From positions 1 through 64,000 of the IMG/VR virus record IMGVR_UViG_3300027808_000009: a stretch of DNA of 64,000 nucleotides; one strand, given 5' to 3'. Every line of letters starts with the position of its first letter. Position 1 is the stretch's first letter. The DNA comes from a virus. Shown piece by piece: positions 2,296 through 23,955 of the stretch. The notes under the pieces are model-generated. The model had not been told where the DNA came from and searched no databases. It saw only the letters and a list, made by a program, of their open reading frames with translations. The position numbers were made by a program, and so were the translations under genes.

Positions 2296-2982
2296 TTAGT
2301 CTAAATCAAAGTCAGAAGCTACCTTACTTGGTACTGCAAAGTCATCATCACCGTTTCCAAATGATTCAACTTTCTTTGCTTCTAGTTTTTTAAGATGATC
2401 AGTTTCACTATATAATAAGTGTTTACCTGATCCAAGTTTAGCAAATGCATAACCATTCTTAGAAGATTTTGGTAAAAATAAGTCATAATTTGTATAACCT
2501 GTTTTACCTTCATATTCTTTTCCTGCAATACAGAAATCTAAATACTTATCTTTAAATGGAGCTGTTTCATTAAATGCATTAATGAAATCTTCAATAGTAT
2601 CATGCACATTATCTTGAGTATCAAACCATTCAGTCATGTCTAATGCTGTACAAACAGATTTTAAGAATACTAATATAGAATTATCTCTATAGATTTGTAT
2701 TCCAGATTTAGTCTGACCATCAGCAAATGCATACTGACCAGCTTTTACTCTACCAATTTGACCTTTATAATGACCAGCATCTGGCATATCTTTATTCAAC
2801 ATAAAACCTTCAAACCCCTCAATTGGTTCAGTTTCTACGTTTAAAGTTATAACTATTGCTCCTGGTATGAATTTGAAGTCTTCTGCTACTACACTATTGA
2901 TTTTCAATTTGTGATTACCTGGTGTGATTGTTTTTGGTAATCCACTTCCTCCTGCACTTACGTCTTTAGTTCCTATTGCCAT
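2296..2982 (-). CDS. putative ssDNA-binding protein (DUF669-like)
   Basis: ITPGNHKLKINSV N-terminus, acidic aromatic tail (DDDF...SDFDLD), and position next to an AAA_24 ATPase. Confidence 0.5.
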   Translation of the reverse strand: MAIGTKDVSAGGSGLPKTITPGNHKLKINSVVAEDFKFIPGAIVITLNVETEPIEGFEGFMLNKDMPDAGHYKGQIGRVKAGQYAFADGQTKSGIQIYRDNSILVFLKSVCTALDMTEWFDTQDNVHDTIEDFINAFNETAPFKDKYLDFCIAGKEYEGKTGYTNYDLFLPKSSKNGYAFAKLGSGKHLLYSETDHLKKLEAKKVESFGNGDDDFAVPSKVASDFDLD

Positions 2983-3007: not shown

Positions 3008-3736
3008 TTATTTATATACTTCATCCCAGTGAGTTACTACATCACCTTTATCATTAACTTCACTCAATACTATCTCAGCATTTCTCAAATGATCTGGTCT
3101 AGCACCACAAGTAGTCTCTTCATTAGTTTTAAAACTCAAGATAACCTTGTTACCTTTTCTGAACATATAACCAATTGCATCTGCATTTGCGCAGATTAAA
3201 GACTTGATCTTACCAGTCAAATCAATATTTGCTGACATTACCATCTCACCTTTATCATCTACCTGCTTATCTTTGATATGCCCAGATAGAATAACGTGCT
3301 CTGCAAGAGTATCAACATAGTTTAAAATATCAAAAAATGCTTCTCTTATGTACAAATAACCTGCACCATTAGGTAAAGTAATTACATTATCACCGTCAAA
3401 GTTTTTACCCATTGGTGTTGCTCTGTACTTTTTTACTGCTAATGGAGCTACCATTTCTTCTAATGCAGTTACGGTATCAATAGTAATAAACTTATAAGGT
3501 TTACCTGCAGCTATTACTTGTTTACCAATCTCTAATAACTCTTTTAAATTATTAGCTTTTACTTTCAGTGCATCTACATAATCAGTCCCATTCTCCAAAT
3601 CAATGATTAAATTGTTATCCAACCCTGCAAAAGCGGTAGTTTTACCAGTCTTAGGCTTTGAATAGACAATTAATCTCTTTGGATTCACTCTTGTAGCACT
3701 TACTTTTTTAGTAGGCAATACTAATCCTTCACTCAT
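3008..3736 (-). CDS. AAA_24 / Sak4-like ATPase
   Basis: Walker A YSKPKTGKTT, IIDLENG, Walker B ITIDTVT, ILSGH, and ADAIGYM motifs. Confidence 0.85.
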   Translation of the reverse strand: MSEGLVLPTKKVSATRVNPKRLIVYSKPKTGKTTAFAGLDNNLIIDLENGTDYVDALKVKANNLKELLEIGKQVIAAGKPYKFITIDTVTALEEMVAPLAVKKYRATPMGKNFDGDNVITLPNGAGYLYIREAFFDILNYVDTLAEHVILSGHIKDKQVDDKGEMVMSANIDLTGKIKSLICANADAIGYMFRKGNKVILSFKTNEETTCGARPDHLRNAEIVLSEVNDKGDVVTHWDEVYK

Positions 3737-21253: not shown

Positions 21254-21550
21254 CTAGAACTCTACATCTAGGCTTTTAGCCACAGGCTTGAAAGTCATAC
21301 TAGATACTTTCTCAGCACCTTGACCCGCATGGTGTAGCATCCAACTAGCCTCTCCGTCTTCAGGACTAAACCAACTAACTACTAAGTCATCAGATAGACT
21401 AGTAATATCATTAGCAATACGGAAAGTTATTCCCGTATCTGTTGTACCAAATAGTTTACCTGTCTTTGGGTTCTTCAATATCTCTATTGAAGATAGACCG
21501 TTAACAGATGCGAACTTGTTGATAGACTGTGTTTTTGAAAATGTGCTCAT
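21254..21550 (-). CDS. early protein, paralogue 1 (KNPKTG family)
   Basis: Tandem paralogue of 21662-21955. Shares FSKT.SI..FA, ILKNPKTG, and VSWFSPEDG.AS.MLH. Confidence 0.8.
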   Translation of the reverse strand: MSTFSKTQSINKFASVNGLSSIEILKNPKTGKLFGTTDTGITFRIANDITSLSDDLVVSWFSPEDGEASWMLHHAGQGAEKVSSMTFKPVAKSLDVEF

Positions 21551-21661: not shown

Positions 21662-21955
21662 TTAGAACTCGTGCAATGTAGCAGGAGCTTTTGCAAAGGA
21701 CATAGAAGATACAACCTCTGCACCCGCACCTTTCTTATGCAACATATAAGATGCATCACCGTCTTCAGGTGAAAACCAGGATACCTGCAAATCTGTAGTT
21801 AATTCTTGGATGTCTTTAGCAACACGGTACGTGTTACCTAAATCATCTACCAAGAAATTAGAACCTGTTTTAGGGTTCTTAAGGATATTCAACTCTGAAA
21901 TACCTTGTTTCTCTGCGAATGCAGAAATGCTAATTGTTTTTGAAAAACTGCTCAT
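21662..21955 (-). CDS. early protein, paralogue 2 (KNPKTG family)
   Basis: See paralogue 1. Confidence 0.8.
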   Translation of the reverse strand: MSSFSKTISISAFAEKQGISELNILKNPKTGSNFLVDDLGNTYRVAKDIQELTTDLQVSWFSPEDGDASYMLHKKGAGAEVVSSMSFAKAPATLHEF

Positions 21956-23695: not shown

Positions 23696-23745
23696 AATAT
23701 GAGTTATAAAATGGTTGACTAAAAGAGAGATGACCTCTCCTTTCT

Positions 23746-23895
23746 TTAGAAAGGGAGATCATCATCATCACACGGATAAGTCATATCCGCTTGTTCTATC
23801 ATCCAAAGAGCAAAGGCTTCTTGCTCTTCAAAGATGAAGTCAGAGAGTTCTTGGTAGAACTCTCTTTCCATACGAGTGTATTCATCTTGTGTCAT
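23746..23895 (-). CDS. 49-aa acidic peptide ending DDDDLPF (SSB C-terminal-tail mimic; not in the ORF track)
   Basis: MTQDEYTRMEREFYQELSDFIFEEQEAFALWMIEQADMTYPCDDDDLPF, with 15 D/E against 2 R. Has its own motif copy (23920) and terminator. Confidence 0.75.
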   Translation of the reverse strand: MTQDEYTRMEREFYQELSDFIFEEQEAFALWMIEQADMTYPCDDDDLPF

Positions 23896-23955
23896 AATAT
23901 AAAGTATTAAGTTATAAGGAGTTATAAAATGGTAAAAAAAGGGGTATAATACCCC

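What the first reader, a model, noticed from the sequence alone, without database searches (positions are those of the whole stretch)
23746..23895. Unannotated 49-aa early peptide that ends in a bacterial SSB C-terminal tip (DDDDLPF)
The peptide has 15 acidic and 2 basic residues, a predicted amphipathic helix, and the terminus DDDDLPF. Bacterial SSBs recruit partners (ExoI, RecQ, RecJ, PriA, Pol III chi, UNG and others) through a terminal DD(D)(I/L)PF motif. This peptide has the tip but no OB fold, and has its own promoter and terminator in the earliest-expressed region. It may competitively detach host repair, replication or nuclease enzymes from SSB, or decoy defence systems that sense SSB or SSB-DNA. 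The acidic helix could additionally act as a DNA mimic.
Basis: partly seen in the sequence, partly recalled or inferred. Interest (0 to 1): 0.8.

Follow-up and report, generated by a model that had tools for sequence, protein, structure and literature searches.

The report
Phage microprotein with SSB docking tip
An uncultured crAss-like phage encodes a 49-residue acidic helix ending in an exact copy of the docking peptide that Bacteroidota SSB uses to recruit replication and repair enzymes, with no DNA-binding domain, so it probably plugs into or blocks that host network, though no binding was tested.

Summary
Window 23746-23895 (-) is a 49-aa ORF with 15 acidic and 2 basic residues, ending DDDDLPF. 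It sits in its own promoter-motif/terminator cassette in a small-gene array of a 118-kb crAss-like phage.

- **Coding:** four DNA variants keep the frame through three in-frame indels; pN/pS is below 1 in five of six pairs.
- **Fold:** AlphaFold2 gives one amphipathic helix (residues 3-35) plus a disordered tail. There is no OB fold and no detectable family.
- **Tip:** canonical SSBs sampled from Bacteroidota end in LPF in 25 of 31 picked ORFs, most often DDDLPF. None of 30 cyanobacterial ones do.
- **Second family:** an unrelated 112-121-aa early protein family in sister phages keeps D-x-L-P-F after a variable linker, so the tip is a portable, selected module.
- **Caveat:** the codons for DDLPF also form the 5' arm of the gene's terminator hairpin.

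Best reading (about 0.5): an OB-less SSB-tip mimic that occupies SSB-tail pockets on host genome-maintenance proteins, probably as a competitor.

I found no published stand-alone mimic. This scan has already noted similar SSB-tip microproteins in other phages.

The parts
23746..23895 (-). Coding sequence of the 49-aa acidic microprotein (stop codon at 23746-23748)
   Evidence: ORF list. There are 7 protein clusters at 80-100% identity. Four DNA variants keep the frame through three in-frame indels, with pN/pS 0.18-1.2.
23791..23889 (-). Amphipathic helix, residues 3-35
   Evidence: AlphaFold2 gives pLDDT above 90. Invariant residues point to 273 degrees on the helical wheel and hydrophobic residues to 252 degrees, while variable residues point to 91 degrees.
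23770..23790 (-). Flexible linker, residues 36-42 (ADMTYPC); its end varies in sequence and length between relatives
   Evidence: Low pLDDT. The variants C / RE / YDN, and indels of -6, +3 and +3 nt, lie here and in the adjoining Asp run.
23749..23769 (-). SSB-type C-terminal tip DDDDLPF, residues 43-49
   Evidence: Identical to the tips of Bacteroidota SSB, DUF3127 and DnaB proteins. LPF is invariant in all variants.
23729..23763 (-). Terminator hairpin; its 5' arm is the codons for D-D-L-P-F and the stop codon lies in the loop
   Evidence: RNA fold: -22.5 kcal/mol, z -3.4. Two substitutions in L303 keep the pairing, U.G to C.G and G.C to G.U.
23721..23728 (-). U-rich run after the hairpin (UCUCUUUU)
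   Evidence: Read from the sequence.
23921..23933 (-). Array promoter-like motif ACCATTTTATAAC, 25 nt upstream of the ATG
   Evidence: 12 matches in the window against 0.75 expected; 10 of them are minus-strand copies at 21.6-24.4 kb. The motif is conserved in L002, L302 and L303.
23934..23955 (-). Terminator of the upstream cassette (GGGG...CCCC hairpin plus U-run), abutting the promoter motif
   Evidence: Read from the sequence.

Best explanation
The gene encodes a real phage microprotein, probably expressed early. It is built like the tail of an SSB without the body: one conserved amphipathic helix, a short flexible linker, and the terminal peptide D-D-D-D-L-P-F with a free carboxylate.

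That peptide is the hub motif through which Bacteroidota SSB recruits its partners. In well-studied bacteria those partners are RecQ, RecJ, RecO, PriA, primase, the clamp loader, UNG, RNase HI and others. Some Flavobacteriales DnaB helicases carry the same peptide.

Because the head has a net charge of -9, it cannot bind DNA. The peptide therefore presents the tip away from DNA. It would occupy the SSB-tail pockets of host genome-maintenance proteins and most likely compete them off SSB-coated DNA. The outcome would be shut-off of host replication and repair, or protection of phage DNA intermediates.

The hydrophobic face of the helix is a second interface, either for self-association into a multivalent display or for extra contacts that select one partner.

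**Shown:** the gene, its conservation, its helix-plus-tail architecture, and tip identity with the SSBs of the likely host phylum.

**Inferred:** early timing, binding, competition and the biological outcome.
For: **The gene is real**
- All variants keep the frame through three in-frame indels, and pN/pS is below 1 in 5 of 6 pairs.
- The start context and the promoter-to-ATG spacing match the other cassettes.

**The tip matches the host-phylum SSB**
- In 120 bacterial ORFs found by the DDDLPF-stop pattern, nearly all are SSBs, including many from Bacteroidota genera. Pfam confirms SSB, DUF3127 and DnaB for those tested.
- In an even sample of 41 Bacteroidota genomes, 25 of 31 picked SSB ORFs end in LPF. 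DDDLPF occurs 10 times and KDDLPF 6 times, and DDELPF and DDGLPF also occur. In the cyanobacterial sample, 0 of 30 do.
- Shine-Dalgarno-like motifs precede only 1 of 78 genes, and the capsid is crAss-type. Both fit a Bacteroidota host.

**The tip is selected as a protein feature**
- An unrelated family of 112-121 aa, seen in 19 clusters at 57-76% identity, sits in the same array of sister phages. It keeps D, P and F invariant and L in at least 90% of members, after a linker of variable length.
- In that family the Leu codon differs (TTA versus CTT), and the tip lies outside the terminator.
- Two sister phages carry both families.

**There is no DNA-binding body**
- AlphaFold2 gives a single helix.
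- No Pfam, PHROG, PADLOC or PDB match was found.
- The head's charge density is -0.24. Among 229 other DDDLPF-ending ORFs the lowest is -0.14 and the median is 0.

**Published background**
- Blocking SSB-tail interactions with small molecules stops replication and recombination and kills bacteria (PMC3594151).
Against: - No binding, expression or phenotype data exist. The host is not identified.
- The family is tiny: it forms one cluster at 50% identity among 1.8 billion representatives. Conservation of LPF within it therefore carries little weight on its own.
- The LPF codons are also constrained by the terminator hairpin.
- A free tip usually binds partners only at micromolar affinity (established knowledge of SSB-Ct peptides), so effective competition needs high expression or help from the helix.
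- The phage encodes a Sak4-like annealase. This class is known to dock on SSB tails (PMC5928155), so the phage's own machinery could be the target, or could be harmed by a decoy.
Confidence: 0.5

Rival explanations
1. The peptide is an adaptor rather than a blocker. The helix holds a phage component or another host protein, and the tip recruits a host enzyme with an SSB-tail pocket to it, for example primase, the clamp loader, a helicase or a nuclease. That enzyme is thereby redirected to phage DNA or to a phage complex.
For: - The conserved face of the helix is hydrophobic, as expected for a protein-binding interface.
- Sister phages attach the same tip to a different, larger head. This suits a portable address label on different cargo.
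- Host DnaB helicases and a Prim-Pol protein carry the same tip, so in this phylum the tip is used for recruitment beyond SSB.
Against: No partner for the helix is known. The helix could equally mediate self-association.
Confidence: 0.2
2. The tip is read by the phage's own proteins, for example the Sak4-like annealase or the phage helicase or primase. The peptide would then regulate phage recombination or replication rather than act on host enzymes.
For: - The phage encodes a Sak4-like annealase at 3008-3736.
- HK620 Sak4 needs the last six residues of its SSB to load on SSB-coated DNA (PMC5928155).
- No canonical SSB was found in the phage.
Against: - The tip copies the host-phylum SSB exactly, rather than being a phage-specific variant.
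- The gene lies in the small-gene array, about 20 kb from the replication genes, and has its own promoter.
- A tip carried on a protein that cannot bind DNA would compete with recruitment of Sak4 to DNA, not assist it.
Confidence: 0.1
3. The resemblance is incidental. The last residues are simply what the terminator stem encodes, or the protein acts through its acidic helix (as a DNA mimic or in some other role) and the tip has no docking function.
For: - The codons for DDLPF form the 5' arm of a 15-bp terminator hairpin, and substitutions in L303 preserve the pairing.
- The family is too shallow for protein-level conservation to be decisive.
Against: - The chance of such an ending is about 3e-6 per ORF.
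- The acidic run extends upstream of the hairpin.
- The unrelated second family keeps the tip outside its terminator and with different Leu codons.
- The conserved face of the helix is hydrophobic, not acidic.
- No match to any anti-restriction or DNA-mimic family was found.
Confidence: 0.1

Closest known systems
C-terminal tip of bacterial SSB (SSB-Ct; E. coli ...DDDIPF, Bacteroidota and Bacillota ...DDDLPF)
   Same: The last six or seven residues are identical to Bacteroidota SSB tips. The tip sits at the extreme C-terminus, after a flexible acidic linker.
   Different: There is no OB-fold DNA-binding or tetramerisation domain. The head is one 33-residue acidic amphipathic helix, so the tip is displayed away from DNA.
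Acidic Phe-terminated tails of phage T7 gp2.5 (SSB) and gp4 (helicase-primase), which bind the same site on T7 DNA polymerase (from my knowledge of the Richardson laboratory's work; not read here)
   Same: One short acidic tail with a terminal Phe is placed on more than one unrelated phage protein as a portable docking module. Here it appears on the 49-aa family and on the 112-121-aa family.
   Different: The T7 tails belong to replisome enzymes and bind a phage polymerase. Here the carriers are tiny proteins in the small-gene array with no enzymatic or DNA-binding domain, and the tip copies the host's SSB.
HK620 SSB tail NDYPPF, which recruits the Sak4 annealase (PMC5928155)
   Same: A phage system in which a six-residue Pro-Phe tail mediates recruitment. 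This phage also has a Sak4-like gene.
   Different: In HK620 the tail is on a true SSB encoded next to sak4. Here it is on an OB-less peptide about 20 kb away.
Prophage DUF669 proteins, phage gp32-like SSBs, mini-OB proteins and SpoVG-like proteins that end in DDDIPF or DDDLPF (PMC13687109)
   Same: Mobile elements copy the host SSB tip onto non-canonical scaffolds.
   Different: Those scaffolds are, or are thought to be, nucleic-acid-binding. None of the 113 sampled viral ORFs ending DDDLPF was a stand-alone acidic helix.
Small-molecule inhibitors of SSB-protein interactions (PMC3594151)
   Same: The proposed mode of action is the same: occupy SSB-Ct pockets and so block replication, recombination and repair.
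   Different: Those are synthetic compounds with demonstrated effects. This is a natural peptide with no experimental data.

Membership tests
SSB-Ct hub motif (bacterial SSB C-terminal tip) | The motif lies at the extreme C-terminus and ends in Pro-Phe with a free carboxylate | tested here: met
   The ORF ends ...LPF followed by TAA. All 8 variants do the same.
SSB-Ct hub motif (bacterial SSB C-terminal tip) | Ile or Leu at position -3 and two or more acidic residues immediately upstream | tested here: met
   The window has DDDDLPF. Variants have 2 to 4 acidic residues before LPF. These fall within the range seen in Bacteroidota SSBs.
SSB-Ct hub motif (bacterial SSB C-terminal tip) | The tip is carried on a flexible, poorly conserved linker | tested here: met
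   pLDDT is about 60 over the last 14 residues. The linker varies in sequence and length.
SSB-Ct hub motif (bacterial SSB C-terminal tip) | Binds the hydrophobic pocket and basic ridge of SSB-interacting proteins | not testable with these tools
This needs biochemistry.
Bacterial or phage SSB protein (PF00436 and analogues) | An OB-fold or other ssDNA-binding domain | tested here: not met
   No Pfam or PHROG match was found. The AlphaFold2 model is a single helix. The head has net charge -9. The peptide is not an SSB.
DNA-mimic anti-restriction or anti-repair proteins (Ocr, ArdA, Ugi, p56) | Sequence or fold membership, with a conserved array of surface carboxylates that imitates the DNA backbone | tested here: not met
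   No match in Pfam, PHROGs, PADLOC or PDB sequences. The conserved helix face is hydrophobic, although several Glu residues are also invariant; the variable positions lie on the polar face. Functional mimicry itself cannot be tested here.
Self-contained cassette of the small-gene array of this crAss-like phage | The upstream terminator abuts the ACCATTTTWTAAC motif, the ATG lies 19-41 nt downstream, and the cassette has its own terminator | tested here: met
   The same arrangement is found in L002, L302 and L303.

The most novel reading that the evidence does not exclude
crAss-like phages of Bacteroidota use the host SSB docking tip as a portable address label. They attach it to several unrelated proteins of the small-gene array: the 49-aa helix, the 112-121-aa family, and possibly the Phe-terminated 96-105-aa paralogues. 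Together these would form a take-over toolkit that re-wires or disables the host SSB interaction hub at the start of infection. Combined with the similar microproteins this scan has noted in unrelated phages, this would be a general and so far undescribed phage strategy of short-motif mimicry against the SSB hub.
Probability: 0.35. Interest if true: 0.8.

Novelty: new variant of a known kind. Interest (0 to 1): 0.62.

Why it matters
The SSB tail is the central docking hub of bacterial genome maintenance and a validated antibacterial target (PMC3594151).

A natural phage peptide that consists of little more than that tail would be a new class of host take-over factor. It would give a ready-made probe for finding SSB partners in Bacteroidota, where this network is essentially unstudied. 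It would also give a first functional handle on the early genes of crAss-like phages, almost all of which are unknown.

The tip also discriminates between candidate host phyla. It matches Bacteroidota-type SSB tails and not cyanobacterial ones, which is useful for an uncultured phage whose nearest named relative infects a cyanobacterium.

Tried and rejected
**Searches that found nothing**
- Similarity searches against 50,697 phage records found nothing for the region or for the peptide.
- A profile search of 1.8 billion representatives found only the family's own cluster. There are therefore no distant homologues and no longer or fused forms.
- The ESM Atlas gave no usable hit, and PDB sequences gave none.
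- Pfam, PHROGs and PADLOC gave no match.
- Literature searches for a stand-alone phage SSB-tail mimic found none. The library is incomplete, so this is not proof of absence.

**Leads that failed**
- The AlphaFold2 model of the second family was too poor to search with (mean pLDDT 58). I ran no fold search, because a lone helix or a poor model gives meaningless matches.
- The 228-aa neighbour of the Sak4-like gene has an acidic tail, but I could not show that it is an SSB.
- Three apparent mini-ORFs ending DDDLPF in viral contigs turned out to be frameshifted tails of SpoVG-like or SSB genes.
- A 49-aa acidic ORF ending DDDDLPF in a Lyngbya MAG has no homologues and was dropped.
- The Bacteroidota promoter motif TAnnTTTG is not enriched upstream of genes.

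- The look-up of encoding contigs, so no DNA could be fetched for three protein variants.
- The look-up of sequencing runs, so no expression evidence could be obtained and read laying was unusable.
- Complex prediction, so I could test neither self-association of the helix nor docking to a partner.

Full report
**What is there**

The minus-strand ORF at 23746-23895 encodes 49 residues. Fifteen are acidic and two are basic, and the protein ends DDDDLPF. It is the only ORF in the whole genome that ends in [IL]PF. From the genome's own amino-acid frequencies, such an ending is expected about 3e-6 times per ORF.

The window belongs to a 117,919-bp virus record that is rated complete.
- Its capsid is crAss-type (PF23898).
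- It encodes a 4,116-aa protein with a DFDVD motif, of the kind found in crAss-like virion RNA polymerases (Drobysheva et al., bioRxiv 10.1101/2020.03.07.982082).
- The nearest named relative is only 28.5% identical in the capsid protein, and that phage infects a cyanobacterium. The host therefore had to be inferred.

**Setting**

The gene lies in an array of small cassettes on the minus strand, close to the point near 24.7 kb where leftward and rightward genes diverge.

Each cassette has the same layout: the previous terminator, then ACCATTTTWTAAC, then 19-41 nt, then ATG. The window holds 12 motif matches against 0.75 expected, and 10 of them are minus-strand copies between 21.6 and 24.4 kb. 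The next cassette downstream makes an RNA and was followed up by another agent.

By analogy with phi14:2, such small genes are probably early. In phi14:2 no common early promoter motif was found. Both the timing and the polymerase that reads the motif here are therefore inferred, not shown.

**Is it a gene?**

- The exact protein is in the protein collection, in a cluster seen on 18 contigs, and six further clusters share 80-92% identity with it.
- I obtained four distinct DNA versions: the window, L002 (identical to L003 and L304), L302 and L303.
- These differ by three in-frame indels, all in the linker or the Asp run. pN/pS is 0.18-0.64 in five pairs and 1.2 in one.
- Amino-acid changes cluster at a few positions: 11, 22-23, 33-35 and 42-43.
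- The family is very narrow. A profile search of 1.8 billion representatives returned only its own cluster.

**Architecture**

AlphaFold2 gives one helix, residues 3-35, with pLDDT above 90, and a low-confidence tail, residues 36-49.

On a helical wheel the invariant residues point to 273 degrees, close to the hydrophobic face at 252 degrees. The variable residues point the opposite way, to 91 degrees. The hydrophobic stripe is therefore a conserved interface, either for self-association or for a partner.

No Pfam, PHROG, PADLOC or PDB family matches the peptide.

**Is the tip really an SSB tip?**

I scanned bacterial genomes for DNA encoding DDDLPF followed by a stop. Of the 120 ORFs returned, almost all have canonical SSB N-termini. 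Many come from Bacteroidota genera (Chryseobacterium, Pedobacter, Epilithonimonas, Larkinella, Flavobacteriaceae, Bacteroidales and others) and many from Bacillota.

Pfam confirmed the families of the ones I tested:
- canonical SSB (PF00436);
- DUF3127;
- two Flavobacteriales DnaB helicases;
- a Prim-Pol protein;
- an Abi_C protein.

For an unbiased comparison I drew 41 genomes evenly from each of two phyla and read the tails of the best-scoring SSB genes.
- **Bacteroidota:** 25 of 31 picked ORFs end in LPF. DDDLPF occurs 10 times and KDDLPF 6 times, and DDELPF and DDGLPF also occur. The other six look like tail-less paralogues or mis-picked frames.
- **Cyanobacteria:** 0 of 30 end in [IL]PF. 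Fifteen end in ...EF, ...NF or similar.

The peptide's tip is therefore the Bacteroidota (and Bacillota) type. Shine-Dalgarno-like motifs are almost absent upstream of the genes (1 of 78), and the virion is crAss-like. Taken together, this points to a Bacteroidota host.

**Independent support from a second family**

The sister phage L002/L003 has, four cassettes downstream, an unrelated 121-aa gene ending DDGLPF. Its family contains 19 clusters at 57-76% identity. In these, D, P and F of the terminal D-x-L-P-F are invariant and L is kept in at least 90%, after a linker that varies in length and sequence.

In that family the tip is not part of the terminator, and the Leu codon differs between phages, TTA against CTT. 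The tip is thus conserved at the protein level.

L303 carries both families, with the second ending VDDDLPF. The window's own genome lacks the second family. The tip therefore behaves as a portable, selected module on unrelated heads.

**A complication**

In the 49-aa gene, the codons for D-D-L-P-F form the 5' arm of a 15-bp hairpin. The stop codon is in the loop and a U-run follows. In L303, two substitutions keep the pairing: a synonymous GAT to GAC change turns U.G into C.G, and a change in the 3' arm turns G.C into G.U.

Nucleotide invariance of LPF in this family therefore reflects both RNA and protein constraints. The second family is what separates the two.

**How unusual is a tip without a body?**

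Among 113 viral ORFs ending DDDLPF, the carriers were classic SSBs, gp32-like SSBs of 270-300 aa, mini-OB proteins of 77-99 aa and SpoVG-like proteins. The three apparent micro-ORFs were frameshifted tails.

The head of this peptide has a net charge density of -0.24. Among 229 other DDDLPF-ending ORFs the lowest value is -0.14 and the median is 0. It cannot be a DNA binder. No canonical SSB was detected in the phage.

**Mechanism**

SSB-tail peptides bind their partners on their own, without the rest of SSB (established biochemistry of SSB-Ct). Blocking these contacts stops replication and recombination and kills bacteria (PMC3594151).

The most economical reading is that the peptide occupies SSB-tail pockets on host proteins. 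Competition is the likeliest outcome. Recruitment, in an adaptor role, is a serious rival.

The phage's own Sak4-like annealase belongs to a class that reads SSB tails (PMC5928155), so a phage-internal target is also possible.

Defence systems that sense phage SSBs exist (bioRxiv 10.64898/2026.10.21.760695). Nothing here links the peptide to them.

**Novelty**

Six library searches found no description of a stand-alone phage SSB-tail mimic. The nearest published statement is that prophage DUF669 proteins carry DDDIPF and may mimic SSB tails (PMC13687109).

This scan has already noted similar acidic microproteins with SSB-like tips in several unrelated phages and in a phage-like plasmid. Those are unchecked AI notes and not evidence, but they suggest that the class recurs.

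This case adds four things:
- a Bacteroidota-type LPF tip in a crAss-like phage;
- two unrelated tip-bearing families in one array;
- a tip whose codons double as the terminator stem;
- a phylum-level match that informs host assignment.

**Limits**

There are no expression, binding or phenotype data. The host is not identified. The family is shallow.

Noticed in passing
L002:4507-4872 (+); also L006:7001-7351 and L303:1669-2010: A second, unrelated protein family of 112-121 aa in the small-gene array of sister phages ends in a conserved D-x-L-P-F after a variable linker (19 clusters at 57-76% identity). It is absent from the window's own genome. Its AlphaFold2 model was poor (pLDDT 58).
   Followed up: partly
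window 21254-21550 (-) and 21662-21955 (-); homologues in L005, L302 and L303: Two paralogous array proteins of 96-105 aa end in ...LDVEF...LHEF...FDVF...LDPF or ...LSPF; 7 of 8 copies end in Phe. Overall, 4 of 10 array proteins in the window end in Phe, against 4 of 92 other genes. This may be a third family with a Phe-terminated docking tail.
   Followed up: partly
L146:4731-6314 (Chryseobacterium), L179:3605-5128 (Avrilella), L135:1128-3437 (Prolixibacteraceae), L235:1562-2392 (Balneola): Host-side proteins other than SSB carry the same tail. Two Flavobacteriales DnaB helicases end DDDDFPF or DDDDLPF. A Prim-Pol/DUF5906 protein and an Abi_C (abortive infection) protein end DDDLPF.
   Followed up: partly
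L241, L243-L271 (cyanobacterial SSB loci): None of the 30 sampled cyanobacterial SSB tails ends in [IL]PF. About half end in acidic-x-F, such as DDEF, YEEF or PDNF. The rest are short paralogues ending ...RLLGSKRD....
   Followed up: partly
window 2296-2982 (-), next to the Sak4-like gene at 3008-3736 (-): A 228-aa protein with no family match ends in an acidic tail (...GNGDDDFAVPSKVASDFDLD). SSB genes usually lie next to sak4 (PMC5928155), so this may be the phage's own atypical SSB, with a tail unlike the host's.
   Followed up: partly
G000:C1:90735-103085 (+), outside the window: A 4,116-aa ORF carries a DFDVD motif at residue 2317, the catalytic motif reported for crAss-like virion RNA polymerases. 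It is a candidate for the enzyme that reads the ACCATTTTWTAAC motif.
   Followed up: no
L057:2159-2561 and L093:3040-3442: A SpoVG-like 116-aa ORF is followed, in another frame, by an acidic tail ending DDDLPF. This is either a sequencing frameshift or a programmed one inside a GAA/GAT-rich run. L063 has an intact SpoVG-like protein with the tip.
   Followed up: no
L237:627-776 (+), Lyngbya MAG: A 49-aa acidic ORF with a TTG start ends DDDDLPF in a cyanobacterial chromosome, between housekeeping genes. It has no homologues in the protein collection and is probably not a conserved gene.
   Followed up: yes
whole genome G000: Shine-Dalgarno-like motifs precede only 1 of 78 long genes, below the 6% background. 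Starts are preceded by (A/T)TTATG. This fits SD-independent initiation as in Bacteroidota.
   Followed up: partly
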